Source: Azolla caroliniana
Taxonomy: Eukaryota; Plantae; Polypodiophyta
Assembly (NCBI GenBank): GCA_043228905.1
Contig: JBHGNT010000156.1
Span: forward strand, 307 to 64,306
Reading direction: 5' to 3'
DNA: 64,000 nucleotides
Part shown: piece by piece, positions 1 to 55,700 of the stretch
How the letters are laid out: each line of letters starts with the position of its first letter
Numbering within the stretch: the stretch's first letter is position 1
Made by a program: the position numbers and the translations under genes
Notes under the pieces: model-generated
Databases searched by the model: none
Told to the model about the DNA's origin: nothing
Seen by the model: the letters and a program-made list of their open reading frames with translations, nothing else

Positions 1-1258
1 GCTTTGCATATAGCCTATGTTCTCGAAGTCGTTTTAGTACTAATAGTACATGAGAATCATGTTCTTCTTGGGTCTTTGAATAAACCAGTAGATCATCTAA
101 ATAGATGATCAGAAAATCATCCAATAGATCTCGAAATATATCATTCGCCATGTGCTGAAAGACTGCTGGCGCATTAGTGAGTCCGAACGGCATGACCGTA
201 TACTCGAAGTGCCCATATCTGGTGCGAAACGCGGTCTTCCATTCATCTCCTGGTCGGATTCGTACGAGGTTATAGGCTCCTCGTAAATCGATCTTCGTGA
301 AGAACCTGGCACCATTGATTCGTTCTAAAAGACTTGAGATAAGGGGAAGAGCATACCTATTTCTTATTGTAACCTTATTCAAGCCACGGTAATCTACAAC
401 AAGTCGAAGCGAGCCATCTTTTTTCTTGACGAAGAAAATGGGTGCGCCGGCTGGAGATTTCGAATGCCGAATGAAACCGTTCTCCAAATTCTCCTCTATA
501 TAGGCTCGAAGGACTTCTAGCTCGGTTGGTGACAAATTGTAGATCGGCCCCCATGGCGGCTCTTTTCCCGGTTGTAAGTCGATGGCGCAATCGTACGGCC
601 GATGATGAGGAAGTGTGTTGGCTTGTACTTTATCGAACACATCAGCGTACTGACGATACTTCTCGGGGAGTTGAACAGTACTGTCTTCTTTAGTGGTGAT
701 GGAGGGGTTTACTGATATTGCGAAAAGGAACATCTCCTCCTTGCGCCCTTCTTCACGCAACTGATGTAGCGAAATGGTTGGCATTGTCTTTTGGGTTTGT
801 CGACACCGGATTGCCCTTGTTCTCCAATCTATGTTTGGATTGTGTAATTCGAACCATGGTAATCCTAAAACTATGGGATGTTCTGGGATACTAATAATAT
901 TAAACGACACTACACATGCTAAGTTATCTAGGACAATATTAACAGGTTCTGACTCTTCTATGATATTCCCAGAAGCAATGGGACGACCATCAATGACTAC
1001 TACTGAGGCTGGACACGGGAGCTTACTGAGGGATATCTGATGGGCTTGGGCAAAATTCCTATCCATAAAACAAGAATTAGCTCCGGAATCTAGAAGTGCT
1101 AAGGTATGTACTGGAGGGGTACTTTTAGTACTAACTGCTACTTGGGCTACGAACACATCACTAACTTGCTTAGAGGGAATGGAACCACTAATGGGCTGCA
1201 CAGATCTAGGGCTGTCCAACCAAATGGCTCCTATTTTGGCTGGACTTAATAGTTTAAC
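1..1258 (-). CDS. pol: Pol polyprotein, partial (aspartic protease and reverse transcriptase), in the -1 frame relative to gag
   Basis: Hand translation is open from 1273 to the window start with no stop. ALLDSGANSCF (DSG 1090-1082), IVLGLPWFELHNPNIDW, LPHHRPYDCAIDL, FTKIDLRGAYNLVRI and IIYLDDLLVYS (YLDD 103-92). There is no in-frame ATG before the protease active site. It is missing from the ORF track because it is truncated by the window. Confidence 0.96.
1207..1258 (-). promoter_or_regulatory. Predicted -1 programmed ribosomal frameshift signal (slippery heptamer plus stem-loop or pseudoknot)
   Basis: G_TTA_AAC at 1258-1252, then a 6-nt spacer TATTAA. GTCCAGCCAAA (1245-1235) pairs with TTTGGTTGGAC (1224-1214). 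Loop TAGGAGC can pair with GCCCTA (1212-1207). The gag/pol overlap is limited to 1273-1246. Confidence 0.85.
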
Positions 1259-2436
1259 TCTTCTTCTAACTGACTAAGGACATCAAATTTGTTGACTAAA
1301 TTTGGACTATAAGTACTATTAGAACTTTCATGCATACCTAGGGAAGTAGACTCAGTTTTAGCATTATTAAGACTATCAGACACACCTAGGGAAACAGACT
1401 CGGGTTTAGTACTATTAGTACAGGCAATTATTTGGTTTACCTGTCTTTTTGGTCTATTGGGACAGTTTACTGCAATATGCCCTGGTCCCCCGCAATACAA
1501 ACATAGTCGATGTGCCCTGCGTCGCTGCTTTTCTTCTTCCGATAGTGGTCCGCGACGACGTGTGGTGTCGATCTCCATTGGAGTCGGAGTATTCGTTGGA
1601 GATGTACTGAAGGACTCCCTTGAAAAAGGCTTTGCTACGATTGAAGCATAGGTAGGCTCCGATCTTGTCCTTGGCATTTGGAACTGACGTTCCGAGCGTC
1701 GTTCGAAGAGGCGGTTATCGCATCGCACCGCACGACTGATTGCTTCGGTCAATGATTTTGGCTCTTCGGGGAAAGTTAAGAGTAGATCTTTAACATCATT
1801 CCGTAGGCCAAAGCGAAATTGTTCCATCAATGCCTGGTCATCCCAGGGAATATCGCTGGCAAGAAGACGGAAGTCCGCAGCATAAGCTGAGGCCGGCCGC
1901 TCACCTTGGCGCAATCTCCGGATTTTGTTGATGGCGGTTCTGACACTGTCAGTATCTCCGAAACAGGATTTAAACTCGCTCATAAACTCTTCAAAATTAT
2001 TTAACATGGGAGAGTTTTTCTCTAACAGAGGGGCGAACCATGCCAAAGCCGTGCCACTAAGTAGAGTGCCAACTAGTCCCACTCGGGATGCATCGGTGGG
2101 ATATCGAGAAGGATGCATTTGGATCACTAGACGTACCTGGTTGAGGAATCCTCTAAACTGTGATCTGGTCCCATCAAATTTTGTAGGGAGACCGATCTTG
2201 GGTTCTCTGTGAATCCCTTGATTACCTGATCCTTGTTGTTGGAGTGATATAATGGTCGCTTCGAGTTGTTGTACCCGTAGCGTCAGCTCCCCATGTTGTT
2301 GCTGTTTTTCCAGCGCCGTTTGTTGAAGATCCCCCAACAGGCGGTGATTTTCTTGTTCAAGCGCTAAAAATTTCTCTTTTAAGGACTGGAGCTCCGAGAA
2401 AACAGATTGGTATTCTTGAGCGCTAACAGTTTCCAT
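1246..2436 (-). CDS. gag: Gag (396 aa): N-terminal coiled coil, sushi/PEG10-like capsid, CCHC zinc knuckle
   Basis: EPKIGLPTKFDGTRSQFRGF, LRQGERPASAYAADFR, QFRFGL and PMEID motifs; CLYCGGPGHIAVNC (CX2CX4HX4C, 1503-1462); ATG lies about 95 nt downstream of the LTR. Confidence 0.96.
   Translation of the reverse strand: METVSAQEYQSVFSELQSLKEKFLALEQENHRLLGDLQQTALEKQQQHGELTLRVQQLEATIISLQQQGSGNQGIHREPKIGLPTKFDGTRSQFRGFLNQVRLVIQMHPSRYPTDASRVGLVGTLLSGTALAWFAPLLEKNSPMLNNFEEFMSEFKSCFGDTDSVRTAINKIRRLRQGERPASAYAADFRLLASDIPWDDQALMEQFRFGLRNDVKDLLLTFPEEPKSLTEAISRAVRCDNRLFERRSERQFQMPRTRSEPTYASIVAKPFSRESFSTSPTNTPTPMEIDTTRRRGPLSEEEKQRRRAHRLCLYCGGPGHIAVNCPNRPKRQVNQIIACTNSTKPESVSLGVSDSLNNAKTESTSLGMHESSNSTYSPNLVNKFDVLSQLEEELNY
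1312..1418 (-). repeat. Degenerate in-frame 48-bp (16-codon) tandem duplication in the Gag C-terminal tail
   Basis: acctagggaa..agactc at 1336 and 1384 (48 apart); agtactattag at 1312 and 1408 (96 apart); peptides TKPESVSLGVSDSLNN and AKTESTSLGMHESSNS. Confidence 0.75.
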
Positions 2437-2518
2437 TTTGATAGGGAGAATAAGGGTATTAGTATGAAGAGAAGGAGGATAAAAGGGAAGGAAGAGGGAG
2501 AGAAAGACCAGATGGAGA

Positions 2519-2530
2519 AAATCGGTTCAA
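2519..2530 (-). promoter_or_regulatory. Primer-binding site, self-priming type (not tRNA-complementary)
   Basis: The element strand reads ...TGACA-GT-TTGAACCGATTT, with no TGG for tRNA CCA. It is the perfect 12-nt complement of 2781-2770 inside the LTR. Confidence 0.85.
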
Positions 2531-2555
2531 ACTGTCAGGAACGCTACCTAGGCGG

Positions 2556-2630
2556 AGAAGGAATTAGTACTAAAAGAAGGATTAGTACAATTGTTGAGAA
2601 CAGTACTAAGACAGAGAAGGATTAGTACTA
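2556..2630. repeat. Three copies of AGAAGG(A)ATTAGTAWA-like motif (core ATTAGTAC) in LTR U5
   Basis: AGAAGGAATTAGTACTA 2556-2572, AGAAGGATTAGTACAA 2575-2590, AGAAGGATTAGTACTA 2615-2630. Confidence 0.75.
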
Positions 2631-2660
2631 TGAGAGGTGTAGAACGTTGAGAGAAGGAAC

Positions 2661-2696
2661 GAGTGAGAGGGAGAGAGAGAGAGAAAGAGAGAGAGA
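2661..2696. repeat. Imperfect (GA)n/(TC)n microsatellite in LTR R/U5
   Basis: gagtgagagggagagagagagagaaagagagagaga. Confidence 0.85.
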
Positions 2697-2769
2697 ATGA
2701 TGATACGAAGGATATATGTATTAGGTGAAGGAAAATATACAATAACAGCTAGAAGGCTTAAGACTGGCG

Positions 2770-2781
2770 TTGAACCGATTT
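2770..2781 (-). promoter_or_regulatory. Predicted transcription start and self-primer (AAATCGGTTCAA)
   Basis: Begins 33 nt downstream of the first T of the TATA box; complementary to the PBS at 2530-2519. Confidence 0.75.
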
Positions 2782-2806
2782 GGTTCGAACTAATGCCTTG
2801 CGCCTC

Positions 2807-2814
2807 CTTTTATA
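2807..2814 (-). promoter_or_regulatory. TATA box (TATAAAAG) of the LTR promoter
   Basis: Matches the TATAWAWR consensus, is oriented toward gag, and has plausible spacing to the predicted start. Confidence 0.8.
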
Positions 2815-2819
2815 GTGTC

Positions 2820-2872
2820 TTCAGGAATACTCCTGAAGTTTCTAGAATGTTCCAGAGAAATCTGGAATATAC
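2820..2872. promoter_or_regulatory. Extended heat-shock element array (alternating nGAAn/nTTCn)
   Basis: TTC2820 GAA2825 cTC2830 GAA2835 TTC2840 GAA2845 TTC2850 GAg2855 aTC2860 GAA2865 TaC2870: 11 in-phase pentamers, 7 perfect, 4 consecutive perfect. Confidence 0.78.
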
Positions 2873-2940
2873 ATCCATTTCCTAATAAAATATAAATGAA
2901 AATAATATACTTCGAATTACAATGTATAATATAACGGTAA

Positions 2941-2980
2941 AGACTCGACCCATGTAACAACAGGTTATGGGTTCGAGTCT
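2941..2980. repeat. Subterminal inverted repeat or hairpin in U3
   Basis: AGACTCGA-CCCATGTAAC [AACAG] GTT-ATGGG-T-TCGAGTCT, 10 bp from the LTR end. Confidence 0.75.
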
Positions 2981-3604
2981 AGTTATGACAAGGGCTGCTC
3001 TCAACTCACTACTCATGTTTGCTAATTTCGTCATGTCTCTCCACCTGAGTTTCAAAATCTTGATTTTTGAATTCCATATCATAGCTAGGGTTGTTAGCTT
3101 CGATTCGCATGTTTGAACACAAAAATCCGATATCACAGGAGCCAGGTATGAACATTTTAATTTACGCAAGGGCTCCTCTCAACTCACTCCTCAAATTTGG
3201 TAATTTCATCATGTCTCTCGACCTGAGTTTAAAAATCTTGATTTATAAATTCCATATCATAGCTAGCGTTGTTAGCTTCGATTCGCATGTTTGAACACAA
3301 AAATCCGATATCACACGAGCCAGGTATGAACATTTTAATTTACTCAAGCGCTCCTCTCAACTCACTACTCATGTTTGCTAATTTCGTCATGTCTCTCGAC
3401 CTGAGTTTCAAAATCTTGATTTTTGAATTCCATATCATAGCTAGCGTTGTTAGCTTCGATTCGCATGTTTGAACACAAAAATCCGATATCACACGAGCCA
3501 GGTATGAACATTTTAATTTACTCAAGGGCTGCTCTCAACTCACTCCTCAAATTTTGTAATTTCGTCATGTATCTCGACCTGAGTTTAAAAATCTTGATAA
3601 ATTA

Positions 3605-6600
3605 ATTCCATATCATAGCTAGCGTTGTTAGCTTCGATTCGCATGTTTGGACACAAAAATCCGATATTACACGAGCCAGGTATGAACATTTTAATTTACT
3701 CAAGGGCTCCTCTCAACTCACTACTCATGTTTGGTAATTTCATCAGGTCTCTCGACCTGAGTTTCAAAATCTTGATTTATTAATTCCATATCATAGCTAG
3801 CGTTGGTAGCTTCGATTCGCATGTTTGAACACAAAAATCCGATATCACACGAGCCAGGTATGAACATTTTAATTTACTCAAGGGTTCCTCTCAACTCACT
3901 CCTCAAATTTGGTAATTTCATCATGTCTCTCGACCTGAGTTTAAAAATCTTGATTTATAAATTCCATATCATAGCTAGCGTTGTTAGCTTCGATTCGCAT
4001 GTTTGAACACAAAAATCCGATATCACACGAGCCAGGTATGAACATTTTAATTTACTCAAGGGCTCCTCTCAACTCACTGCTCAAATTTGGTAATTTCGTC
4101 ATGTCTCTCGACCTGAGTTTCAAAATCTTGATTTTTGAATTCCATATCATAGCTAGCGTTGTTAGCTTCGATTCCCATGTTTGAACACAAAAATCCGATA
4201 TCACACGAGCCAGGTATGAACATTTTAATTTACTCACGGGCTCCTCTCAACTCACTCCTCAAATTTGGTAATTTCGTCATGTCTCTCGACCTGAGTTTCA
4301 AAATCTTGATTTTTGAATTCCATATCATAGCTAGCGTTGTTAGCTTCGATTCGCATGTTTGAACACAAAAATCCGATATCACACGAGCCAGGTATGAACA
4401 TTTTAATTTACTCAAGGGCTCCTCTCAACTCACTACTCATGTTTGCTAATTTCGTCATGTCTCTCGACCTGAATTTCAAAATCTTGATTTATTAATTCCA
4501 TATCATAGCTAGCGTTGTTAGCTTCGATTCGCATGTTTGAACACAAAAATCCGATATCACACGAGCCAGGTATGAACATTTTAATTTACTCAAGCGCTCC
4601 TCTCAACTCACTACTCATGTTTGCTAATTTCGTCATGTCTCTCGACCTGAGTTTCAAAATCTTGATTTTTGAATTCCATATCATAGCTAGCGTTGTTAGC
4701 TTCGATTCGCATGTTTGAACACAAAAATCCGATATCACACGAGCCAGGTATGAACATTTTAATTTACTCAAGGGCTGCTCTCAACTCACTCCTCAAATTT
4801 TGTAATTTCGTCATGTATCTCGACCTGAGTTTAAAAATCTTGATAAATTAATTCCATATCATAGCTAGCGTTGTTAGCTTCGATTCGCATGTTTGGACAC
4901 AAAAATCCGATATTACACGAGCCAGGTATGAACATTTTAATTTACTCAAGGGCTCCTCTCAACTCACTACTCATGTTTGGTAATTTCATCAGGTCTCTCG
5001 ACCTGAGTTTCAAAATCTTGATTTATTAATTCCATATCATAGCTAGCGTTGGTAGCTTTGATTCGCATGTTTGAACACAAAAATCCGATATCACACGAGC
5101 CAGGTATGAACATTTTAATTTACTCAAGGGTTCCTCTCAACTCACTCCTCAAATTTGGTAATTTCATCATGTCTCTCGACCTGAGTTTAAAAATCTTGAT
5201 TTATTAATTCCATATCATAGCTAGCGTTGTTAGCTTCGATTCGCATGTTTGAACACAAAAATCCGATATCACACGAGCCAGGTAGGAACATTTTAATTTA
5301 CTCAAGGGCTCCTCTCAACTCACTACTCCTGTTTGCTAATTTCGTCATGTCTCTCGACCTGAGTTTCAAAATCTTGATTTTTGAATTCCATATCATAGCT
5401 AGCGTTGTTAGCTTCGATTCGCATGTTTGAACACAAAAATCCGATATCACACGAGCCAGGTATGAACATTTTAATTTACATACGAGCTCTTCTCAACTCA
5501 CTCCTCAAATTTGGTAATTTCGTCATGTCTCTCGACCTGAGTTTCAAAATCTTGATTTTTTAATTCCATATCATAGCTAGCGTTGTTAGCTTTGATTCGC
5601 ATGTTTGAACACAAAAATCGGATATCACACGAGCTAGGTATGAACATTTTAATTTACTCAAGCGCTCCTCTCAACTCACTCCTCAAATTTGGTAATTTCG
5701 TCATGTGTCTCGACCTGAGTTTCAAAATCTTGAGTTTTTAATTCAATATCATAGCTAGCGTTGTTAGCTTCGATTCGCAAGTTTGAACACAAAAATCCGA
5801 TATGACACGAGCCAGGTATGAACATTTTAATTTACTCACGGGCTCCTCTCAACTCACTCCTCAAATTTGGTAATTTCGTCATGTCTCTCGACCTGAGTTT
5901 CAAAATCTTGATTTTTGAATTCCATATCATAGCTAGCGTTGTTAGCTTCGATTCGCATGTTTGAACACAAAAATCCGATATCACACGAGCCAGGTATGAA
6001 CATTTTAATTTACTCAAGGGCTCCTCTCAACTCACTACTCATGTTTGCTAATTTCGTCATGTCTCTCGACCTGAATTTCAAAATCTTGATTTTTGAATTC
6101 CATATCATAGCTAGCGTTGTTAGCTTCGATTCGCATGTTTGAACACAAAAATCCGATATCACACGAGCCAGGTATGAACATTTTAATTTACTCAAGGGCT
6201 CTTCTCAACTCACTACTCATGTTTGCTAATTTCGTCATGTCTCTCGACCTGAGTTTCAAAATCTTGATTTTTGAATTCCATATCATAGCTAGGGTTGTTA
6301 TCTTCGATTCGCATGTTTGGACACAAAAATCCGATATCACAGGAGCCAGGTATGAACATTTTAATTTACGCAAGGGCTGCTCTCAACTCACTCCTCAAAT
6401 TTGGTAATTTCATCAGGTCTCTCGACCTGAGTTTCAAAATCTTGATTTTTTAATTCCATATCATAGCTAGCGTTGTTAGCTTCGATTCGCATGTTTGAAC
6501 ACAAAAATCCGATATCACACGAGCCAGGTATGAACATTTTAATTTACATACGAGCTCTTCTCAACTCACTCCTCAAATTTGGTAATTTCGTCATGTCTCT

Positions 6601-9600
6601 CGACCTGAGTTTCAAAATCTTGATTTTTTAATTCCATATCATAGCTAGCGTTGTTAGCTTTGATTCGCATGTTTGAACACAAAAATCGGATATCACACGA
6701 GCTAGGTATGAACATTTTAATTTACTCAAGCGCTCCTCTCAACTCACTCCTCAAATTTGGTAATTTCGTCATGTGTCTCGACCTGAGTTTCAAAATCTTG
6801 AGTTTTTAATTCAATATCATAGCTAGCGTTGTTAGCTTCGATTCGCATGTTTGAACACAAAAATCCGATATGACACGAGCCAGGTATGAACATTTTAATT
6901 TACTCACGGGCTCCTCTCAACTCACTCCTCAAATTTGGTAATTTCGTCATGTCTCTCGACCTGAGTTTCAAAATCTTGATTTTTGAATTCCATATCATAG
7001 CTAGCGTTGTTAGCTTCGATTCGCATGTTTGAACACAAAAATCCGATATCACACGAGCCAGGTATGAACATTTTAATTTACTCAAGGGCTCTTCTCAACT
7101 CACTACTCATGTTTGCTAATTTCGTCATGTCTCTCGACCTGAGTTTCAAAATCTTGATTTATAAATTCCATATCATAGCTAGGGTTGTTAGCTTCGATTC
7201 GCATGTTTGGACACAAAAATCCGATATCACAGGAGCCAGGTATGAACATTTTAATTTACGCAAGGGCTGCTCTCAACTCACTCCTCAAATTTGGTAATTT
7301 CATCAGGTCTCTCGACCTGAGTTTCAAAATCTTGATTTTTTAATTCCATATCATAGCTAGCGTTGTTAGCTTCGATTCGCATGTTTGAACACAAAAATCC
7401 GATATCACACGAGCCAGGTATGAACATTTTAATTTACTCAAGCGCTCCTCTCAACTCACTACTCATGTTTGCTAATTTCGTCATGTCTCTCGACCTGAGT
7501 TTCAAAATCTTGATTTTTGAATTCCATATCATAGCTAGCGTTGTTAGCTTCGATTCGCATGTTTGAACACAAAAATCCGATATCACACGAGCCAGGTATG
7601 AACATTTTAATTTACTCAAGGGCTGCTCTCAACTCACTCCTCAAATTTTGTAATTTCGTCATGTATCTCGACCTGAGTTTAAAAATCTTGATAAATTAAT
7701 TCCATATCATAGCTAGCGTTGTTAGCTTCGATTCGCATGTTTGGACACAAAAATCCGATATTACACGAGCCAGGTATGAACATTTTAATTTACTCAAGGG
7801 CTCCTCTCAACTCACTACTCATGTTTGGTAATTTCATCAGGTCTCTCGACCTGAGTTTCAAAATCTTAATTTATTAATTCCATATCATAGCTAGCGTTGG
7901 TAGCTTTGATTCGCATGTTTGAACACAAAAATCCGATATCACACGAGCCAGGTATGAACATTTTAATTTACTCAAGGGTTCCTCTCAACTCACTCCTCAA
8001 ATTTGGTAATTTCATCATGTCTCTCGACCTGAGTTTAAAAATCTTGATTTATTAATTCCATATCATAGCTAGCGTTGTTAGCTTCGATTCGCATGTTTGA
8101 ACACAAAAATCCGATATCACACGAGCCAGGTAGGAACATTTTAATTTACTCAAGGGCTCCTCTCAACTCACTACTCATGTTTGCTAATTTCGTCATGTCT
8201 CTCGACCTGAGTTTCAAAATCTTGATTTTTGAATTCCATATCATAGCTAGCGTTGTTAGCTTCGATTCGCATGTTTGAACACAAAAATCCGATATCACAC
8301 GAGCCAGGTATGAACATTTTAATTTACTCAAGGGTTCCTCTCAACTCACTCCTCAAATTTGGTAATTTCATCATGTCTCTCGACCTGAGTTTAAAAATCT
8401 TGATTTATTAATTCCATATCATAGCTAGCGTTGGTAGCTTTGATTCGCATGTTTGGACACAAAAATCCGATATCACAGGAGCCAGGTATGAACATTTTAA
8501 TTTACGCAAGGGCTGCTCTCAACTCACTCCTCAAATTTGGTAATTTCATCAGGTCTCTCGACCTGAGTTTCAAAATCTTGATTTTTTAATTCCATATCAT
8601 AGCTAGCGTTGTTAGCTTCGATTCGAATGTTTGAACACAAAAATCCGATATCACACGAGCCAGGTATGAACATTTTAATTTACATACGAGCTCTTCTCAA
8701 CTCACTCCTCAAATTTGGTAATTTCGTCATGTCTCTCGACCTGAGTTTCAAAATCTTGATTTTTTAATTCCATATCATAGCTAGCGTTGTTAGCTTTGAT
8801 TCGCATGTTTGAACACAAAAATCGGATATCACACGAGCTAGGTATGAACATTTTAATTTACTCAAGCGCTCCTCTCAACTCACTCCTCAAATTTGGTAAT
8901 TTCGTCATGTGTCTCGACCTGAGTTTCAAAATCTTGAGTTTTTAATTCAATATCATAGCTAGCGTTGTTAGCTTCGATTCGCATGTTTGAACACAAAAAT
9001 CCGATATGACACGAGCCAGGTATGAACATTTTAATTTACTCACGGGCTCCTCTCAACTCACTCCTCAAATTTGGTAATTTCGTCATGTCTCTCGACCTGA
9101 GTTTCAAAATCTTGATTTTTGAATTCCATATCATAGCTAGCGTTGTTAGCTTCGATTCGCATGTTTGAACACAAAAATCCGATATCACACGAGCCAGGTA
9201 TGAACATTTTAATTTACTCAAGGGCTCTTCTCAACTCACTACTCATGTTTGCTAATTTCGTCATGTCTCTCGACCTGAGTTTCAAAATCTTGATTTATTA
9301 ATTCCATATCATAGCTAGGGTTGTTAGCTTCGATTCGCATGTTTGGACACAAAAATCCGATATCACAGGAGCCAGGTATGAACATTTTAATTTACGCAAG
9401 GGCTGCTCTCAACTCACTCCTCAAATTTGGTAATTTCATCAGGTCTCTCGACCTGAGTTTCAAAATCTTGATTTTTTAATTCCATATCATAGCTAGCGTT
9501 GTTAGCTTCGATTCGCATGTTTGAACACAAAAATCCGATATCACACGAGCCAGGTATGAACATTTTAATTTACTCAAGGGCTCTTCTCAACTCACTACTC

Positions 9601-12600
9601 ATGTTTGCTAATTTCGTCATGTCTCTCGACCTGAGTTTCAAAATCTTGATTTATTAATTCCATATCATAGCTAGGGTTGTTAGCTTCGATTCGCATGTTT
9701 GGACACAAAAATCCGATATCACAGGAGCCAGGTATGAACATTTTAATTTACGCAAGGGCTGCTCTCAACTCACTCCTCAAATTTTGTAATTTCGTCATGT
9801 ATCTCGACCTGAGTTTAAAAATCTTGATAAATTAATTCTATATCATAGCTAGCGTTGTTAGCTTTGATTCGCATGTTTGGACACAAAAATCCGATATGAC
9901 ACGAGCCAGGTATGAACATTTTAATTTACTCACGGGCTCCTCTCAACTCACTCCTCAAATTTGGTAATTTCGTCATGTCTCTCGACCTGAGTTTCAAAAT
10001 CTTGATTTTTGAATTCCATATCATAGCTAGCGTTGTTAGCTTCGATTCGCATGTTTGAACACAAAAATCCGATATCACACGAGCCAGGTATGAACATTTT
10101 AATTTACTCAAGGGCTGCTCTCAACTCACTCCTCAAATTTTGTAATTTCGTCATGTATCTCGACCTGAGTTTAAAAATCTTGATAAATTAATTCCATATC
10201 ATAGCTAGCGTTGTTAGCTTCGATTCGCATGTTTGGACACAAAAATCCGATATTACACGAGCCAGGTATGAACATTTTAATTTACTCAAGGGCTCCTCTC
10301 AACTCACTACTCATGTTTGGTAATTTCATCAGGTCTCTCGACCTGAGTTTCAAAATCTTGATTTATTAATTCCATATCATAGCTAGCGTTGGTAGCTTTG
10401 ATTCGCATGTTTGAACACAAAATCCCGATATCACACGAGCCAGGTATGAACATTTTAATTTACTCAAGGGCTCCTCTCAACTCACTACTCATGTTTGCTA
10501 ATTTCGTCATGTCTCTCGACCTGAGTTTCAAAATCTTGATTTTTTAATTCCATATCATAGCTAGCGTTGTTAGCTTCGATTCGCATGTTTGAACACAAAA
10601 ATCCGATATCACACGAGCCAGGTATGAACATTTTAATTTACATACGAGCTCTTCTCAACTCACTCCTCAAATTTGGTAATTTCGTCATGTCTCTCGACCT
10701 GAGTTTCAAAATCTTGATTTTTTAATTCCATATCATAGCTAGCGTTGTTAGCTTTGATTCGCATGTTTGAACACAAAAATCGGATATCACACGAGCTAGG
10801 TATGAACATTTTAATTTACTCAAGCGCTCCTCTCAACTCACTCCTCAAATTTGGTAATTTCGTCATGTGTCTCGACCTGAGTTTCAAAATCTTGAGTTTT
10901 TAATTCAATATCATAGCTAGCGTTGTTAGCTTCGATTCGCATGTTTGAACACAAAAATCCGATATGACACGAGCCAGGTATGAACATTTTAATTTACTCA
11001 CGGGCTCCTCTCAACTCACTCCTCAAATTTGGTAATTTCGTCATGTCTCTCGACCTGAGTTTCGAAATCTTGATTTTTGAATTCCATATCATAGCTAGCG
11101 TTGTTAGCTTCGATTCGCATGTTTGGACACAAAAATCCGATATTACACGAGCCAGGTATGAACATTTTAATTTACTCAAGGGCTCCTCTCAACTCACTAC
11201 TCATGTTTGGTAATTTCATCAGGTCTCTCGACCTGAGTTTCAAAATCTTGATTTATTAATTCCATATCATAGCTAGCGTTGGTAGCTTCGATTCGCATGT
11301 TTGAACACAAAAATCCGATATCACACGAGCCAGGTATGAACATTTTAATTTACTCAAGGGTTCCTCTCAACTCACTCCTCAAATTTGGTAATTTCATCAT
11401 GTCTCTCGACCTGAGTTTAAAAATCTTGATTTATAAATTCCATATCATAGCTAGCGTTGTTAGCTTCGATTCGCATGTTTGAACACAAAAATCCGATATC
11501 ACACGAGCCAGGTATGAACATTTTAATTTACTCAAGGGCTCCTCTCAACTCACTGCTCAAATTTGGTAATTTCGTCATGTCTCTCGACCTGAGTTTCAAA
11601 ATCTTGATTTTTGAATTCCATATCATAGCTAGCGTTGTTAGCTTCGATTCCCATGTTTGAACACAAAAATCCGATATCACACGAGCCAGGTATGAACATT
11701 TTAATTTACTCACGGGCTCCTCTCAACTCACTCCTCAAATTTGGTAATTTCGTCATGTCTCTCGACCTGAGTTTCAAAATCTTGATTTTTGAATTCCATA
11801 TCATAGCTAGCGTTGTTAGCTTCGATTCGCATGTTTGAACACAAAAATCCGATATCACACGAGCCAGGTATGAACATTTTAATTTACTCAAGGGCTCCTC
11901 TCAACTCACTACTCATGTTTGCTAATTTCGTCATGTCTCTCGACCTGAATTTCAAAATCTTGATTTATTAATTCCATATCATAGCTAGCGTTGTTAGCTT
12001 CGATTCGCATGTTTGAACACAAAAATCCGATATCACACGAGCCAGGTATGAACATTTTAATTTACTCAAGCGCTCCTCTCAACTCACTACTCATGTTTGC
12101 TAATTTCGTCATGTCTCTCGACCTGAGTTTCAAAATCTTGATTTTTGAATTCCATATCATAGCTAGCGTTGTTAGCTTCGATTCGCATGTTTGAACACAA
12201 AAATCCGATATCACACGAGCCAGGTATGAACATTTTAATTTACTCAAGGGCTGCTCTCAACTCACTCCTCAAATTTTGTAATTTCGTCATGTATCTCGAC
12301 CTGAGTTTAAAAATCTTGATAAATTAATTCCATATCATAGCTAGCGTTGTTAGCTTCGATTCGCATGTTTGGACACAAAAATCCGATATTACACGAGCCA
12401 GGTATGAACATTTTAATTTACTCAAGGGCTCCTCTCAACTCACTACTCATGTTTGGTAATTTCATCAGGTCTCTCGACCTGAGTTTCAAAATCTTGATTT
12501 ATTAATTCCATATCATAGCTAGCGTTGGTAGCTTTGATTCGCATGTTTGAACACAAAAATCCGATATCACACGAGCCAGGTATGAACATTTTAATTTACT

Positions 12601-15600
12601 CAAGGGTTCCTCTCAACTCACTCCTCAAATTTGGTAATTTCATCATGTCTCTCGACCTGAGTTTAAAAATCTTGATTTATTAATTCCATATCATAGCTAG
12701 CGTTGTTAGCTTCGATTCGCATGTTTGAACACAAAAATCCGATATCACACGAGCCAGGTAGGAACATTTTAATTTACTCAAGGGCTCCTCTCAACTCACT
12801 ACTCCTGTTTGCTAATTTCGTCATGTCTCTCGACCTGAGTTTCAAAATCTTGATTTTTGAATTCCATATCATAGCTAGCGTTGTTAGCTTCGATTCGCAT
12901 GTTTGAACACAAAAATCCGATATCACACGAGCCAGGTATGAACATTTTAATTTACATACGAGCTCTTCTCAACTCACTCCTCAAATTTGGTAATTTCGTC
13001 ATGTCTCTCGACCTGAGTTTCAAAATCTTGATTTTTTAATTCCATATCATAGCTAGCGTTGTTAGCTTTGATTCGCATGTTTGAACACAAAAATCGGATA
13101 TCACACGAGCTAGGTATGAACATTTTAATTTACTCAAGCGCTCCTCTCAACTCACTCCTCAAATTTGGTAATTTCGTCATGTGTCTCGACCTGAGTTTCA
13201 AAATCTTGAGTTTTTAATTCAATATCATAGCTAGCGTTGTTAGCTTCGATTCGCAAGTTTGAACACAAAAATCCGATATGACACGAGCCAGGTATGAACA
13301 TTTTAATTTACTCACGGGCTCCTCTCAACTCACTCCTCAAATTTGGTAATTTCGTCATGTCTCTCGACCTGAGTTTCAAAATCTTGATTTTTGAATTCCA
13401 TATCATAGCTAGCGTTGTTAGCTTCGATTCGCATGTTTGAACACAAAAATCCGATATCACACGAGCCAGGTATGAACATTTTAATTTACTCAAGGGCTCC
13501 TCTCAACTCACTACTCATGTTTGCTAATTTCGTCATGTCTCTCGACCTGAATTTCAAAATCTTGATTTTTGAATTCCATATCATAGCTAGCGTTGTTAGC
13601 TTCGATTCGCATGTTTGAACACAAAAATCCGATATCACACGAGCCAGGTATGAACATTTTAATTTACTCAAGGGCTCTTCTCAACTCACTACTCATGTTT
13701 GCTAATTTCGTCATGTCTCTCGACCTGAGTTTCAAAATCTTGATTTTTGAATTCCATATCATAGCTAGGGTTGTTATCTTCGATTCGCATGTTTGGACAC
13801 AAAAATCCGATATCACAGGAGCCAGGTATGAACATTTTAATTTACGCAAGGGCTGCTCTCAACTCACTCCTCAAATTTGGTAATTTCATCAGGTCTCTCG
13901 ACCTGAGTTTCAAAATCTTGATTTTTTAATTCCATATCATAGCTAGCGTTGTTAGCTTCGATTCGCATGTTTGAACACAAAAATCCGATATCACACGAGC
14001 CAGGTATGAACATTTTAATTTACATACGAGCTCTTCTCAACTCACTCCTCAAATTTGGTAATTTCGTCATGTCTCTCGACCTGAGTTTCAAAATCTTGAT
14101 TTTTTAATTCCATATCATAGCTAGCGTTGTTAGCTTTGATTCGCATGTTTGAACACAAAAATCGGATATCACACGAGCTAGGTATGAACATTTTAATTTA
14201 CTCAAGCGCTCCTCTCAACTCACTCCTCAAATTTGGTAATTTCGTCATGTGTCTCGACCTGAGTTTCAAAATCTTGAGTTTTTAATTCAATATCATAGCT
14301 AGCGTTGTTAGCTTCGATTCGCATGTTTGAACACAAAAATCCGATATGACACGAGCCAGGTATGAACATTTTAATTTACTCACGGGCTCCTCTCAACTCA
14401 CTCCTCAAATTTGGTAATTTCGTCATGTCTCTCGACCTGAGTTTCAAAATCTTGATTTTTGAATTCCATATCATAGCTAGCGTTGTTAGCTTCGATTCGC
14501 ATGTTTGAACACAAAAATCCGATATCACACGAGCCAGGTATGAACATTTTAATTTACTCAAGGGCTCTTCTCAACTCACTACTCATGTTTGCTAATTTCG
14601 TCATGTCTCTCGACCTGAGTTTCAAAATCTTGATTTATAAATTCCATATCATAGCTAGGGTTGTTAGCTTCGATTCGCATGTTTGGACACAAAAATCCGA
14701 TATCACAGGAGCCAGGTATGAACATTTTAATTTACGCAAGGGCTGCTCTCAACTCACTCCTCAAATTTGGTAATTTCATCAGGTCTCTCGACCTGAGTTT
14801 CAAAATCTTGATTTTTTAATTCCATATCATAGCTAGCGTTGTTAGCTTCGATTCGCATGTTTGAACACAAAAATCCGATATCACACGAGCCAGGTATGAA
14901 CATTTTAATTTACTCAAGCGCTCCTCTCAACTCACTACTCATGTTTGCTAATTTCGTCATGTCTCTCGACCTGAGTTTCAAAATCTTGATTTTTGAATTC
15001 CATATCATAGCTAGCGTTGTTAGCTTCGATTCGCATGTTTGAACACAAAAATCCGATATCACACGAGCCAGGTATGAACATTTTAATTTACTCAAGGGCT
15101 GCTCTCAACTCACTCCTCAAATTTTGTAATTTCGTCATGTATCTCGACCTGAGTTTAAAAATCTTGATAAATTAATTCCATATCATAGCTAGCGTTGTTA
15201 GCTTCGATTCGCATGTTTGGACACAAAAATCCGATATTACACGAGCCAGGTATGAACATTTTAATTTACTCAAGGGCTCCTCTCAACTCACTACTCATGT
15301 TTGGTAATTTCATCAGGTCTCTCGACCTGAGTTTCAAAATCTTAATTTATTAATTCCATATCATAGCTAGCGTTGGTAGCTTTGATTCGCATGTTTGAAC
15401 ACAAAAATCCGATATCACACGAGCCAGGTATGAACATTTTAATTTACTCAAGGGTTCCTCTCAACTCACTCCTCAAATTTGGTAATTTCATCATGTCTCT
15501 CGACCTGAGTTTAAAAATCTTGATTTATTAATTCCATATCATAGCTAGCGTTGTTAGCTTCGATTCGCATGTTTGAACACAAAAATCCGATATCACACGA

Positions 15601-18600
15601 GCCAGGTAGGAACATTTTAATTTACTCAAGGGCTCCTCTCAACTCACTACTCATGTTTGCTAATTTCGTCATGTCTCTCGACCTGAGTTTCAAAATCTTG
15701 ATTTTTGAATTCCATATCATAGCTAGCGTTGTTAGCTTCGATTCGCATGTTTGAACACAAAAATCCGATATCACACGAGCCAGGTATGAACATTTTAATT
15801 TACTCAAGGGTTCCTCTCAACTCACTCCTCAAATTTGGTAATTTCATCATGTCTCTCGACCTGAGTTTAAAAATCTTGATTTATTAATTCCATATCATAG
15901 CTAGCGTTGGTAGCTTTGATTCGCATGTTTGGACACAAAAATCCGATATCACAGGAGCCAGGTATGAACATTTTAATTTACGCAAGGGCTGCTCTCAACT
16001 CACTCCTCAAATTTGGTAATTTCATCAGGTCTCTCGACCTGAGTTTCAAAATCTTGATTTTTTAATTCCATATCATAGCTAGCGTTGTTAGCTTCGATTC
16101 GAATGTTTGAACACAAAAATCCGATATCACACGAGCCAGGTATGAACATTTTAATTTACATACGAGCTCTTCTCAACTCACTCCTCAAATTTGGTAATTT
16201 CGTCATGTCTCTCGACCTGAGTTTCAAAATCTTGATTTTTTAATTCCATATCATAGCTAGCGTTGTTAGCTTTGATTCGCATGTTTGAACACAAAAATCG
16301 GATATCACACGAGCTAGGTATGAACATTTTAATTTACTCAAGCGCTCCTCTCAACTCACTCCTCAAATTTGGTAATTTCGTCATGTGTCTCGACCTGAGT
16401 TTCAAAATCTTGAGTTTTTAATTCAATATCATAGCTAGCGTTGTTAGCTTCGATTCGCATGTTTGAACACAAAAATCCGATATGACACGAGCCAGGTATG
16501 AACATTTTAATTTACTCACGGGCTCCTCTCAACTCACTCCTCAAATTTGGTAATTTCGTCATGTCTCTCGACCTGAGTTTCAAAATCTTGATTTTTGAAT
16601 TCCATATCATAGCTAGCGTTGTTAGCTTCGATTCGCATGTTTGAACACAAAAATCCGATATCACACGAGCCAGGTATGAACATTTTAATTTACTCAAGGG
16701 CTCTTCTCAACTCACTACTCATGTTTGCTAATTTCGTCATGTCTCTCGACCTGAGTTTCAAAATCTTGATTTATTAATTCCATATCATAGCTAGGGTTGT
16801 TAGCTTCGATTCGCATGTTTGGACACAAAAATCCGATATCACAGGAGCCAGGTATGAACATTTTAATTTACGCAAGGGCTGCTCTCAACTCACTCCTCAA
16901 ATTTGGTAATTTCATCAGGTCTCTCGACCTGAGTTTCAAAATCTTGATTTTTTAATTCCATATCATAGCTAGCGTTGTTAGCTTCGATTCGCATGTTTGA
17001 ACACAAAAATCCGATATCACACGAGCCAGGTATGAACATTTTAATTTACTCAAGGGCTCTTCTCAACTCACTACTCATGTTTGCTAATTTCGTCATGTCT
17101 CTCGACCTGAGTTTCAAAATCTTGATTTATTAATTCCATATCATAGCTAGGGTTGTTAGCTTCGATTCGCATGTTTGGACACAAAAATCCGATATCACAG
17201 GAGCCAGGTATGAACATTTTAATTTACGCAAGGGCTGCTCTCAACTCACTCCTCAAATTTTGTAATTTCGTCATGTATCTCGACCTGAGTTTAAAAATCT
17301 TGATAAATTAATTCTATATCATAGCTAGCGTTGTTAGCTTTGATTCGCATGTTTGGACACAAAAATCCGATATGACACGAGCCAGGTATGAACATTTTAA
17401 TTTACTCACGGGCTCCTCTCAACTCACTCCTCAAATTTGGTAATTTCGTCATGTCTCTCGACCTGAGTTTCAAAATCTTGATTTTTGAATTCCATATCAT
17501 AGCTAGCGTTGTTAGCTTCGATTCGCATGTTTGAACACAAAAATCCGATATCACACGAGCCAGGTATGAACATTTTAATTTACTCAAGGGCTGCTCTCAA
17601 CTCACTCCTCAAATTTTGTAATTTCGTCATGTATCTCGACCTGAGTTTAAAAATCTTGATAAATTAATTCCATATCATAGCTAGCGTTGTTAGCTTCGAT
17701 TCGCATGTTTGGACACAAAAATCCGATATTACACGAGCCAGGTATGAACATTTTAATTTACTCAAGGGCTCCTCTCAACTCACTACTCATGTTTGGTAAT
17801 TTCATCAGGTCTCTCGACCTGAGTTTCAAAATCTTGATTTATTAATTCCATATCATAGCTAGCGTTGGTAGCTTTGATTCGCATGTTTGAACACAAAATC
17901 CCGATATCACACGAGCCAGGTATGAACATTTTAATTTACTCAAGGGCTCCTCTCAACTCACTACTCATGTTTGCTAATTTCGTCATGTCTCTCGACCTGA
18001 GTTTCAAAATCTTGATTTTTTAATTCCATATCATAGCTAGCGTTGTTAGCTTCGATTCGCATGTTTGAACACAAAAATCCGATATCACACGAGCCAGGTA
18101 TGAACATTTTAATTTACATACGAGCTCTTCTCAACTCACTCCTCAAATTTGGTAATTTCGTCATGTCTCTCGACCTGAGTTTCAAAATCTTGATTTTTTA
18201 ATTCCATATCATAGCTAGCGTTGTTAGCTTTGATTCGCATGTTTGAACACAAAAATCGGATATCACACGAGCTAGGTATGAACATTTTAATTTACTCAAG
18301 CGCTCCTCTCAACTCACTCCTCAAATTTGGTAATTTCGTCATGTGTCTCGACCTGAGTTTCAAAATCTTGAGTTTTTAATTCAATATCATAGCTAGCGTT
18401 GTTAGCTTCGATTCGCATGTTTGAACACAAAAATCCGATATGACACGAGCCAGGTATGAACATTTTAATTTACTCACGGGCTCCTCTCAACTCACTCCTC
18501 AAATTTGGTAATTTCGTCATGTCTCTCGACCTGAGTTTCGAAATCTTGATTTTTGAATTCCATATCATAGCTAGCGTTGTTAGCTTCGATTCGCATGTTT

Positions 18601-18601
18601 G
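3605..18601. repeat. Higher-order repeat: 42-monomer (7476 bp) block in two tandem copies
   Basis: Rare variants recur at +7476: cactGctc 4079/11555, attcCcatg 4175/11651, cgcaAgttt 5780/13256, attcgAatg 8626/16102, attcTata 9839/17315, ttcGaaat 11064/18540. Confidence 0.93.
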
Positions 18602-21600
18602 AACACAAAAATCCGATATCACACGAGCCAGGTATGAACATTTTAATTTACTCAAGGGCTCCTCTCAACTCACTACTCATGTTTGCTAATTTCGTCATGT
18701 CTCTCGACCTGAATTTCAAAATCTTGATTTTTGAATTCCATATCATAGCTAGCGTTGTTAGCTTCGATTCGCATGTTTGAACACAAAAATCCGATATCAC
18801 ACGAGCCAGGTATGAACATTTTAATTTACTCAAGGGCTCTTCTCAACTCACTACTCATGTTTGCTAATTTCGTCATGTCTCTCGACCTGAGTTTCAAAAT
18901 CTTGATTTTTTAATTCCATATCATAGCTAGGGTTGTGAGCTTCGATTCGCATGTTTGGACACAAAAATCCGATATCACAGGAGCCAGGTATGAACATTTT
19001 AATTTACGCAAGGGCTGCTCTCAACTCACTCCTCAAATTTGGTAATTTCATCAGGTCTCTCGACCTGAGTTTCAAAATCTTGATTTTTTAATTCCATATC
19101 ATAGCTAGCGTTGTTAGCTTCGATTCGCATGTTTGAACACAAAAATCCGATATCACACGAGCCAGGTATGAACATTTTAATTTACTCAAGCGCTCCTCTC
19201 AACTCACTACTCATGTTTGCTAATTTCGTCATGTCTCTCGACCTGAGTTTCAAAATCTTGATTTTTGAATTCCATATCATAGCTAGCGTTGTTAGCTTCG
19301 ATTCGCATGTTTGAACACAAAAATCCGATATCACACGAGCCAGGTATGAACATTTTAATTTACTCAAGGGCTCCTCTCAACTCACTCCTCAAATTTTGTA
19401 ATTTCGTCATGTATCTCGACCTGAGTTTAAAAATCTTGATAAATTAATTCCATATCATAGCTAGCGTTGTTAGCTTCGATTCGCATGTTTGGACACAAAA
19501 ATCCGATATTACACGAGCCAGGTATGAACATTTTAATTTACTCAAGGGCTCCTCTCAACTCACTACTCATGTTTGGTAATTTCATCAGGTCTCTCGACCT
19601 GAGTTTCAAAATCTTGATTTATTAATTCCATATCATAGCTAGCGTTGTTAGCTTCGATTCGCATGTTTGAACAAAAAAATCCGATATCACACGAGCCAGG
19701 TATGAACATTTTAATTTACTCAAGGGCTCCTCTCAACTCACTGCTCATGTTTGCTAATTTCGTCATGTCTCTCGACCTGAGTTTCAAAATCTTGATTTTT
19801 GAATTCCATATCATAGCTAGCGTTGTTAGCTTCGATTCACATGTTTGAACACAAAAATCCGATATCACACGAGCCAGGTATGAACATTTTAATTTACTCA
19901 AGGGCTGCTCTCAACTCACTCCTCAAATTTTGTAATTTCGTCATGTATCTCGACCTGAGTTTAAAAATCTTGATAAATTAATTCCATATCATAGCTAGCG
20001 TTGTTAATTTCAACTCATGTTTGCTAATTTCGTCATGTCTCTCGACCTGAGTTTCAAAATCTTGATTTTTGAATTCCATATCATAGCTAGCGTTGTTAGC
20101 TTCGATTCGCATGTTTGAACACAAAAATCCGATATGACACGAGCCAGGTATGAACATTTTAATTTACTCACGGGCTCCTCTCAACTCACTCCTCAAATTT
20201 GGTAATTTCGTCATGTCTCTCGACCTGAGTTTCAAAATCTTGATTTTTGAATTCCATATCATAGCTAGCGTTGTTAGCTTCGATTCGCATGTTTGAACAC
20301 AAAAATCCGATATCACACGAGCCAGGTATGAACATTTTAATTTACTCAAGGGCTCCTCTTAACTCACTACTCATGTTTGCTAATTTCGTCATGTCTCTCG
20401 ACCTGAATTTCAAAATCTTGATTTTTGAATTCCATATCATAGCTAGCGTTGTTAGCTTCGATTCGCATGTTTGAACACAAAAATCCGATATCACACGAGC
20501 CAGGTATGAACATTTTAATTTACTCAAGGGCTCTTCTCAACTCACTACTCATGTTTGCTAATTTCGTCATGTCTCTCGACCTGAGTTTCAAAATCTTGAT
20601 TTTTGAATTCCATATCATAGCTAGGGTTGTTAGCTTCGATTCGCATGTTTGGACACAAAAATCCGATATCACAGGAGCCAGGTATGAACATTTTAATTTA
20701 CGCAAGGGCTGCTCTCAACTCACTCCTCAAATTTGGTAATTTCATCAGGTCTCTCGACCTGAGTTTCAAAATCTTGATTTTTTAATTCCATATCATAGCT
20801 AGCGTTGTTAGCTTCGATTCGCATGTTTGAACACAAAAATCCGATATCACACGAGCCAGGTATGAACATTTTAATTTACTCAAGCGCTCCTCTCAACTCA
20901 CTACTCATGTTTGCTAATTTCGTCATGTCTCTCGACCTGAGTTTCAAAATCTTGATTTTTGAATTCCATATCATAGCTAGCGTTGTTAGCTTCGATTCGC
21001 ATGTTTGAACACAAAAATCCGATATCACACGAGCCAGGTATGAACATTTTAATTTACTCAAGGGCTGCTCTCAACTCACTCCTCAAATTTTGTAATTTCG
21101 TCATGTATCTCGACCTGAGTTTAAAAATCTTGATAAATTAATTCCATATCATAGCTAGCGTTGTTAGCTTCGATTCGCATGTTTGGACACAAAAATCCGA
21201 TATTACACGAGCCAGGTATGAACATTTTAATTTACTCAAGGGCTCCTCTCAACTCACTACTCATGTTTGGTAATTTCATCAGGTCTCTCGACCTGAGTTT
21301 CAAAATCTTGATTTATTAATTCCATATCATAGCTAGCGTTGGTAGCTTTGATTCGCATGTTTGAACACAAAAATCCGATATCACACGAGCCAGGTATGAA
21401 CATTTTAATTTACTCAAGGGCTCCTCTCAACTCACTACTCATGTTTGCTAATTTCGTCATGTCTCTCGACCTGAGTTTCAAAATCTTGATTTTTGAATTC
21501 CATATCATAGCTAGCGTTGTTAGCTTCGATTCGCATGTTTGAACACAAAAATCCGATATCACACGAGCCAGGTATGAACATTTTAATTTACATACGAGCT

Positions 21601-39600: not shown

Positions 39601-40100
39601 TTGCTAATTTCGTCATGTCTCTCGACCTGAGTTTCAAAATCTTGATTTCTGAATTCCATATCATAGCTAGCGTTGTTAGCTTCGATTCGCATGTTTGAAC
39701 ACAAAAATCCGATATCACACGAGCCAGGTATGAACATTTTAATTTACTCAAGGGCTGCTCTCAACTCACTCCTCAAATTTTGTAATTTCGTCATGTATCT
39801 CGACCTGAGTTTAAAAATCTTGATAAATTAATTCCATATCATAGCTAGCGTTGTTAGCTTCGATTCGCATGTTTGGACACAAAAATCCGATATTACACGA
39901 GCCAGGTATGAACATTTTAATTTACTCAAGGGCTCCTCTCAACTCACTACTCATGTTTGGTAATTTCATCAGGTCTCTCGACCTGAGTTTCAAAATCTTG
40001 ATTTATTAATTCCATATCATAGCTAGCGTTGGTAGCTTTGATTCGCATGTTTGAACACAAAAATCCGATATTACACGAGCCAGGTATGAACATTTTAATT
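18602..40100. repeat. Mosaic domain of partial duplications (offsets of 10, 11, 14, 19, 32, 43 and 58 monomers)
   Basis: Matching variant runs at 20271/22051, 29527/31485, 27925/30417, 24899/28281, 31485/37181, 27925/35579 and 22941/33265. It uses the same monomer types as the 42-mer. Confidence 0.78.
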
Positions 40101-49379: not shown

Positions 49380-49659
49380 ACTACTCATGTTTGCTAATTT
49401 CGTCATGTCTCTCGACCTGAGTTTCAAAATCTTGATTTATTAATTCCATATCATAGCTAGCGTTGTTACCTTCGATTCGCATGTTTGAACACAAAAATCC
49501 GATATCACACGAGCCAGGTATGAACATTTTAATTTACTCAAGGGCTCCTCTCAACTCACTACTCATGTTTGCTAATTTCGTCATGTCTCTCGACCTGAGT
49601 TTCAAAATCTTGATTTATTAATTCCATATCATAGCTAGCGTTGAACATGTTTGATAGCG

Positions 49660-55600: not shown

Positions 55601-55700
55601 CTCAAGGGTTGCTCTCAACTCACTCCTCAAATTTGGTAATTTCATCATGTCTCTCGACCTGAGTTTCAAAATCTTGATTTATTAATTCCATATCATAGCT
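49660..55700. repeat. 6-monomer HOR (1068 bp) with partial 12-mer superstructure
   Basis: ctcatAtttgc at 49757, 50825, 51893, 52961, 54029 and 55097; gacctgaTtttc recurs at +2136 (ORFs 50543/52679). Confidence 0.87.

What the first reader, a model, noticed from the sequence alone, without database searches (positions are those of the whole stretch)
2519..2814. tRNA-independent self-priming architecture in the retrotransposon
Seen: there is no TGG-type PBS after the LTR. TTGAACCGATTT (2530-2519) is the perfect 12-nt complement of AAATCGGTTCAA (2781-2770), which starts 33 nt after TATAAAAG. Known: S. pombe Tf1 primes with its own first 11 nt, released by RNase H, and this is predicted for sushi/Maggy-like and Tcn1-type chromoviruses. 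Inference: this element self-primes with a transcript start at about 2781-2780, unlike the tRNA-primed CRM or ATHILA elements usually described in plant satellite centromeres.
Basis: partly seen in the sequence, partly recalled or inferred. Interest (0 to 1): 0.8.

Follow-up and report, generated by a model that had tools for sequence, protein, structure and literature searches.

The report
Self-priming retrotransposon beside plant satellite
A jumping gene next to a satellite array, likely in a fern, has no tRNA docking site; the 12 bases after its left repeat pair perfectly with the predicted start of its own RNA and change in step with it in relatives, so it likely primes its own copying as yeast Tf1 does, a trick already predicted in print for the plant group it resembles.

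Summary
Observation confirmed; interpretation supported; not new. The minus-strand element is a Ty3/gypsy retrotransposon (LTR 2990-2533, TGTCA...TGACA) abutting a 178-bp satellite. Two bases after the LTR, 2530-2519 is the exact complement of 2781-2770, 33 nt after the TATA box (anchored chance 1 of 5000 shuffles). In 22 aligned elements (window plus metagenome relatives), 95% of pair cells hold, 5 of 12 pairs change on both sides (0 of 500 shuffles) and five different perfect duplexes occur, which a fixed tRNA primer cannot easily explain. Relatives carry a chromodomain, and the RT falls outside the seed-plant clade. Self-priming is already predicted for 83% of 1500 plant Tcn1 elements (Neumann 2019), and this scan noted it before in three moss windows. 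Not shown: the start site, exclusion of host tRNAs, Tcn1 membership, centromere identity. Tf1's flanking 'pretzel' duplexes were not found. Extras: the host is likely a fern, where a PCR survey found no Tcn1; 18 of 23 LTRs carry an outward-facing tRNA-like A/B-box pair in U3; two putative RNA runs hold a strand-switch junction at the 12-mer.

The parts
2533..2990 (-). 5' LTR, 458 bp, TGTCA...TGACA
   Evidence: 99.5% identical to L001 over 560 nt
2807..2814 (-). TATA box (TATAAAAG)
   Evidence: 32-34 nt before the primer in 21 of 22 aligned elements
2770..2781 (-). predicted self-primer, first 12 nt of the RNA (start site inferred: C at -1 in 22 of 22 and A at +1 in 21 of 22 aligned elements)
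2531..2532 (-). GT spacer between the LTR end and the primer-binding site (would give a 2-nt extension for integrase to trim; inference)
2519..2530 (-). primer-binding site, exact complement of 2781-2770; no TGG
1246..2436 (-). gag ORF, 396 aa (Retrotrans_gag, Ty3_capsid, DUF4939, weak zf-CCHC)
2..1273 (-). pol ORF overlapping the gag end in the -1 frame: protease and RT, running off the window; relatives L007 and L063 continue with RNase H, integrase and chromodomain
2927..2980 (+). tRNA-like A box (2927-2937) and B box (2970-2980), 43 nt apart, antisense to the element at the outer edge of U3; first T5 run on that strand at 3064, inside the satellite
2991..64000 (.). 178-bp satellite array that abuts the LTR (about 340 monomers, 93-94% matches)

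Best explanation
This is the 5' half of a Ty3/gypsy LTR retrotransposon, likely a Tf1/sushi-type (Tcn1-like) chromovirus in a fern, whose 12 bases after the LTR pair exactly with 2781-2770, the predicted first 12 bases of its RNA, so it likely primes reverse transcription with its own 5' end. Shown: the complementarity, its position 2 nt after the LTR, the fixed distance from the TATA box, and paired changes in relatives. Inferred from Tf1: Pol II starts at about 2781; the RNA folds so that +1 to +12 pairs with the site; RNase H of the element's RT cuts after +12; RT extends the freed 12-mer into U5, beginning with the complement of the GT spacer; plus-strand synthesis later copies the primer back into the binding site, which would keep the two in step.
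For: Exact 12/12 complement at the canonical place (1 of 5000). Of 22 elements with both anchors (found from flanking motifs, not from the 12-mers), 11 pair 12/12 by Watson-Crick and 14 with G-U allowed. Five distinct perfect duplexes occur (window/L001/L011/L049; L007/L008/L027; L015/L047; L063 first element; L063 second element); 95.1% of 264 cells paired against 88.4 +/- 1.0 shuffled; 5 pairs and 18 cells with two-sided change, 0 of 500; sliding the partner by 1-3 columns gives 4.9-64.8% paired. RNAalifold finds the same helix unprompted. Mean pairing probability is 0.91-0.94 in 5 of 5 elements folded from +1. Relatives have a chromodomain (2 of 2 scanned). The RT core is 72% identical to a Cunninghamella element and 50-53% to five seed-plant elements (measured with L007), and the seed-plant/Closterium clade (100/100) excludes the window. 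Neumann 2019 predicts self-priming for 83% of 1500 Tcn1 elements, and the Tf1 mechanism is described in PMC7175516 and PMC10085805.
Against: No start-site data; contigs cannot show one. Putative RNA contigs cross 2781 into U3 (X15, X18, X22), which fits the 3' LTR, read-through or DNA and neither supports nor refutes the start. 8 of 22 elements carry 1-4 true mismatches (mostly low-coverage single copies), and the high-coverage contigs L004 and L005 keep a U-G pair at position 5, which strict copying of the site from the primer should erase over cycles. The 22 rows are related, so the shuffle counts are not probabilities; about six independent changes underlie them (my count). The two flanking duplexes that Tf1 needs were not found: U5-end duplex 0 of 18 and leader duplex 2 of 18 elements at 5 or fewer of 100 shuffles; only a 3-bp GUC/GAC helix is conserved. 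Novikova 2010 found evidence for neither tRNA priming nor self-priming in SM-Tcn1.
Confidence: 0.9

Rival explanations
1. A host tRNA or internal tRNA fragment primes the element, and the LTR match is a by-product.
For: Internal tRNA fragments are proposed as primers elsewhere (half-tRNAs in Neumann 2019; anticodon-loop sites in fungal Helenus). The 12-mers contain T-loop-like words (7-9 nt; T-loop consensus recalled, and seen in the tRNA-Arg of L036). Host tRNAs could not be searched.
Against: No TGG. The site varies across five sequences and each time the LTR copy follows; a tRNA-templated site should stay fixed or follow tRNAs, not the LTR. The T-loop-like words sit in different registers in the window and in L063, and the L063 primer departs from the L036 tRNA at its last two bases, the end that must pair to prime.
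Confidence: 0.04
2. The pairing is real but serves as a structural or regulatory long-range helix (packaging, translation, dimerisation), or priming uses the 12-mer differently, for example from a longer 5' end or from the 3'-LTR copy.
For: The start site is unmapped and the Tf1-type flanking duplexes were not found. Two putative RNA runs hold U3 + 12-mer joined to antisense U5, a product that a U3-containing RNA primed at the 12-mer would give.
Against: The helix ends exactly 2 nt from the LTR end, where minus-strand synthesis must start, and no other primer site is there. Its 5' arm keeps a fixed distance from TATA with a C/A step at -1/+1. With 60 nt of U3 added, the helix is lost in the window and L007 (0.16, 0.0) though kept in 3 of 5 tested. 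The junction is also what fold-back of plus-strand strong-stop DNA or a library artefact would give.
Confidence: 0.05
3. The inverted repeat is chance.
For: Unanchored, 43 of 1000 shuffles give an inverted repeat this long.
Against: Anchored chance is 1 of 5000; the pairing is conserved with two-sided changes in relatives.
Confidence: 0.01

Closest known systems
Plant Tcn1 clade of chromoviruses (REXdb chromovirus|Tcn1; Neumann et al. 2019, PMC6317226: passages and supplementary table row read; Novikova et al. 2010, PMC2864245: passages)
   Same: Non-seed-plant host (likely), no tRNA site, predicted self-priming (83% of 1500), overlapping gag and pol ORFs (the commonest Tcn1 layout, 60%), chromodomain in relatives, RT nearer fungal than seed-plant elements, LTR about 450 bp (SM-Tcn1 440 bp), pyrimidine-rich leader.
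   Different: Those papers report Tcn1 from mosses and lycophytes only, and Novikova's PCR screen of 26 ferns and horsetails found none; this host is likely a fern. The passages I read give no covariation test and mention no tRNA-like boxes in U3. No named Tcn1 RT was in my tree.
Tf1/Tf2 of Schizosaccharomyces pombe, with Tj1 and Tosmo1-3 (PMC7175516, PMC10085805, PMC4600332, PMC11042837: passages)
   Same: Site next to the LTR complementary to the RNA 5' end; Ty3/gypsy with chromodomain.
   Different: 12 nt rather than 11; a 2-nt spacer; no conserved flanking 'pretzel' duplexes detected; separate gag and pol frames; nothing tested at the bench here.
Helenus/Cassandra TRIMs (Kojima 2024, PMC10886601: abstract and passages), for the U3 boxes only
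   Same: tRNA-like sequence with Pol III boxes inside an LTR.
   Different: Those are non-autonomous, tRNA-primed TRIMs thought to use the Pol III promoter to make their own template. Here the element is protein-coding, has a TATA promoter, and the boxes face away from the element.

Membership tests
Ty3/gypsy LTR retrotransposon | TG...CA LTR; gag then PR-RT-RH-INT order | tested here: met
   LTR, gag, PR and RT in the window; RH and INT after RT in relatives L007 and L063. The window ends inside RT.
Chromovirus | Chromodomain at the end of integrase | tested here: met
   PF00385 in L007 (E 1.8e-14) and L063 (8.5e-13). Tested on relatives (L007 RT core 98% identical to the window's); the window's own integrase lies outside it.
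Tf1/sushi group | No tRNA site; binding site complementary to the 5' LTR at the RNA start | tested here: met
Tf1/sushi group | Transcript starts at the primer, which RNase H releases | not testable with these tools
   Only contigs were served; inferred from TATA spacing.
Tf1/sushi group | Three-duplex 'pretzel' (two duplexes flanking the primer helix) | tested here: inconclusive
   No conserved or significant flanking duplex in 18 elements; a 3-bp conserved helix only. Published pretzels were picked by eye, so short ones could be missed.
Tf1/sushi group | RT groups with fungal/vertebrate rather than seed-plant chromoviruses | tested here: inconclusive
   Outside the 100/100 seed-plant + Closterium clade, in an unresolved fan with fungal and vertebrate rows; midpoint root only.
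Tcn1 clade | RT monophyly with Cryptococcus Tcn1, PpatensLTR and SM-Tcn1 | not testable with these tools
   No named Tcn1 protein came back, and the cluster look-up could not be made.
Tcn1 clade | 5-bp target-site duplication | not testable with these tools
   The 3' end lies outside the window and no genome is held.
CRM / Athila (tRNA-primed centromeric elements) | tRNA-type site beginning TGG; RT within seed-plant lineages | tested here: not met
   (no named CRM or Athila RT in the tree; the five seed-plant rows are unclassified gypsy RTs)

The most novel reading that the evidence does not exclude
A fern radiation of self-priming chromoviruses carries, in every LTR, a working tRNA-derived Pol III promoter that faces outward. 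From the 5' LTR it would transcribe the flank (here about 140 nt ending in the 178-bp satellite), and from the 3' LTR it would run antisense over the PPT and chromodomain, so each insertion would seed small-RNA or TFIIIC-bound chromatin in satellite DNA. The strand-switch contigs in two putative RNA runs would be captured self-primed reverse-transcription products, which would be direct in-planta evidence for the mechanism.
Probability: 0.2. Interest if true: 0.62.

Novelty: new member of a known kind. Interest (0 to 1): 0.32.

Why it matters
The mechanism itself is known from Tf1 and predicted for plant Tcn1, so this copy is ordinary. What it adds is modest: comparative support (five matched primer/site pairs) for a prediction that, in the papers I read, rests on complementarity alone; a likely extension of the lineage to ferns; and a young, abundant family in which CAGE and strong-stop sequencing could test self-priming in a plant. 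The outward-facing tRNA-like boxes in U3 are the less expected feature and would matter for how such elements shape satellite chromatin if they prove to be transcribed.

Tried and rejected
No whole genome is held, so host tRNAs, the 3' LTR, the target-site duplication and copy number could not be examined. Viral contigs: 99 pattern matches, none a relative. The cluster look-up for names of relatives could not be made. The look-up of sequencing runs: no RNA holder listed; all runs were contigs, so no start sites. Pretzel duplex search: negative. ARAGORN at default settings called no tRNA in the LTRs of 15 loci (one tRNA-Arg in the flank of L036), and at lowered thresholds the calls were scattered and uninformative. 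Rfam gave no tRNA match for window 2400-3400 (E up to 10) or for 7 loci (E up to 1), so the U3 segment is not a tRNA gene. The strand-switch junction was sought in 70 loci: 7 loose pattern hits (6 in loci, 1 in the window), all continuing into the normal leader, 0 true. No strand-change joint was among the 5 joints listed, but 118 loose-end rows were hidden there and 1476. A hairpin across the predicted start folds in 20 of 23 LTRs but is strong only in some subfamilies and absent in L063's first element: not taken as conserved. Rows dropped before the count of 22 (one search printed 36): 10 spurious anchor hits, L006 (3' LTR followed by flank), and L038, L067 and L068 (no binding site after the LTR anchor). 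The ESM Atlas gave no taxa for the nearest clusters. Literature searches. None of the 25 papers listed contains 'Tcn1'; two searches listed no title on tRNA-like boxes in the LTR of an autonomous gypsy element; one search did not identify the satellite. The library lacks most subscription papers (Levin 1995/96, Lin and Levin 1997/98 and Butler 2001 were seen only as cited).

Full report
Anatomy. The window holds the 5' 3 kb of a minus-strand retroelement followed by 61 kb of a 178-bp satellite. Gag (2436-1246, 396 aa) matches Retrotrans_gag and Ty3_capsid; pol overlaps its end in the -1 frame and carries protease and RT up to the window edge. The LTR runs 2990-2533 and has 5-bp terminal inverted repeats. 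Its outer edge is fixed by L001, which is 99.5% identical but has another flank, and by PPT/LTR junctions in L005-L007. The satellite starts cleanly at 2991.

Observation. Confirmed exactly: 2530-2519 is the 12/12 complement of 2781-2770, lies 2 nt after the LTR's CA, has no TGG, and its partner starts 33 nt after TATAAAAG. A 12-nt inverted repeat anywhere in this region is not rare (43 of 1000 shuffles), but one anchored at the LTR end is (1 of 5000). The predicted 5' RNA folds with this helix at z = -5.38.

Relatives. The search for related loci gave 70 metagenome loci. Using only flanking motifs as anchors, 21 elements in these loci plus the window had both a primer position and an LTR end followed by a site; the 14 other rows were dropped (10 spurious anchor hits, one 3' LTR, three LTRs without a site). 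Eleven of 22 pair perfectly and 14 with G-U; 8 have 1-4 mismatches and are mostly low-coverage single copies. Five different perfect duplexes occur, including two divergent elements lying in tandem in L063. On alignment A2, 95.1% of cells pair, 5 of 12 pairs show two-sided changes and no shuffle of 500 reached these values; sliding the partner destroys the pairing. RNAalifold finds the helix unprompted. The rows are related and the changes number about six events, so this is strong but not a formal probability. Lock-step change is what self-priming predicts, because plus-strand synthesis copies the primer into the site (Tf1 cDNA retains this copy; PMC11042837 passages), and it is not what a tRNA primer predicts. 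One wrinkle: high-coverage contigs L004 and L005 keep a U-G pair. TATA-to-primer distance is 32-34 nt in 21 of 22 (L049 is cut short), with C at -1 invariant and A at +1 in 21 of 22; that this fits a plant Pol II start is recalled knowledge, not measured.

Lineage and host. L007 and L063 encode PR-RT-RH-INT-chromodomain. The RT core is 72% identical to a Cunninghamella element, 55-65% to vertebrate and 50-53% to seed-plant elements. In the careful tree of 48 rows the family sits outside the seed-plant + Closterium clade, unresolved among fungal and vertebrate rows (bootstrap not fully settled, midpoint root). No named Tcn1 sequence was available, so Tcn1 membership is likely but untested. Holders of the DNA include runs labelled plant and leaf metagenome; a host GT47 gene beside relative L051 has ferns as best named hits (Adiantum 49-53%, Ceratopteris 49-50%, mosses 45-46%), and a Ceratopteris protein is a 51% Gag hit. 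The host is therefore likely a fern; this is inferred from a relative's contig, and one earlier scan note on this genome guessed mosses.

Mechanism. Most likely (0.9) Tf1-type self-priming: start at 2781, pairing of +1 to +12 with the site, RNase H cut, extension into U5. The start, the cut and the extension are inferred. Tf1 needs two more duplexes (PMC10085805 passages); I found none conserved in 18 elements apart from a 3-bp helix with the LTR end, so the RNA fold may be simpler than Tf1's.

Prior knowledge. Neumann 2019 states that most Tcn1 elements lack tRNA sites and are predicted to self-prime; its table gives 83% of 1500 (5 supplementary files were searchable as text, and per-element primer sequences were not seen). 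Novikova 2010 found no priming site in SM-Tcn1 and no Tcn1 in 26 ferns and horsetails. This scan recorded the same layout in three moss windows. The finding is therefore a new member of a known kind. The centromere contrast is not established: nothing here shows the array is centromeric, and none of 70 loci contained satellite words.

Side finding 1: tRNA-like boxes. On the strand opposite to the element, the outer 65 nt of U3 carry an A box and a B box 43-44 nt apart, as in the tRNA-Arg found in L036 (44 nt). 18 of 23 LTRs scored above all 200 shuffles, always antisense; 5 did not (L009, L015, L031, L042, L067; box consensus recalled and chosen after seeing the sequences). 11 of 20 LTRs aligned to that tRNA better than all 200 shuffles and 3 more were matched by one shuffle. 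Conservation peaks over the A box and just before the B box (0.93, 0.91) with dips nearby (0.58, 0.68), but other U3 parts are as conserved (up to 0.95), so selection on the boxes is not shown. ARAGORN and Rfam do not call it a tRNA. Helenus TRIMs are the published parallel; two earlier scan notes describe similar boxes in fungal LTRs, one judging them a passenger.

Side finding 2: strand-switch junction. In one search, contigs of X15 and X22 (both guessed to be RNA, different organisms and studies) match U3 plus the 12-mer and then continue as the opposite strand of the U5 end: 118 nt in X22 (depth 3.5) and 6 nt then an Illumina adapter in X15 (adapter recognised from memory). X18 did not show it; no such joint was listed for X1, X2 or X17, with many rows hidden, and none of 70 loci has it. 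It fits fold-back of plus-strand strong-stop DNA, priming on a U3-containing RNA, an inversion between the repeats, or a library artefact at an inverted repeat. It is a lead, not support, and it does not map the start site.

Verdict. Real, well supported, and of a kind already predicted: interest 0.32.

Noticed in passing
window 2927-2980 (+); same place in 18 of 23 LTRs, e.g. L006, L013, L063: tRNA-like A box and B box at tRNA spacing, antisense at the outer edge of U3, pointing into the flank; first T5 run at 3064 in the satellite.
   Followed up: partly
window 2770, contigs of runs X15 and X22: Strand-switch junction at the 12-mer: U3 + primer joined to antisense U5. Fold-back product, inversion or library artefact.
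   Followed up: partly
window 2790-2769 (-); strongest in L004-L008 and L027: The last bases of U3 can pair with the primer in a local hairpin, which would mask the 3'-LTR or read-through copy of the primer in these subfamilies but not in L063 or L015.
   Followed up: partly
window 2560-2632 (-), U5: Repeated palindromic TAGTACTA units in U5, varying in number between subfamilies and absent in L011, L058 and L063; a (CT)n tract at 2696-2661.
   Followed up: no
L063:505-7055; L005; L061: PPT-LTR-site-gag junctions: tandem elements sharing an LTR or assembly collapse. L063 holds two different elements (76% alike) in tandem, as integrase-independent tandem insertion of Tf1 would give.
   Followed up: no
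window 1273-1246 (-): gag and pol overlap by 28 nt in the -1 frame without an obvious canonical slippery heptamer; how Pol is made is open.
   Followed up: no
window 20006-20454: Local irregularity in the satellite (92-, 270- and 448-bp periods) marks a truncated monomer; no non-satellite insert elsewhere in the array.
   Followed up: no
window 2870-2810 (-): Imperfect palindromic TTCTAGAA-type repeats just upstream of the TATA box, the best-conserved part of U3 (0.95) and expanded in L063; they resemble heat-shock elements (recalled).
   Followed up: no
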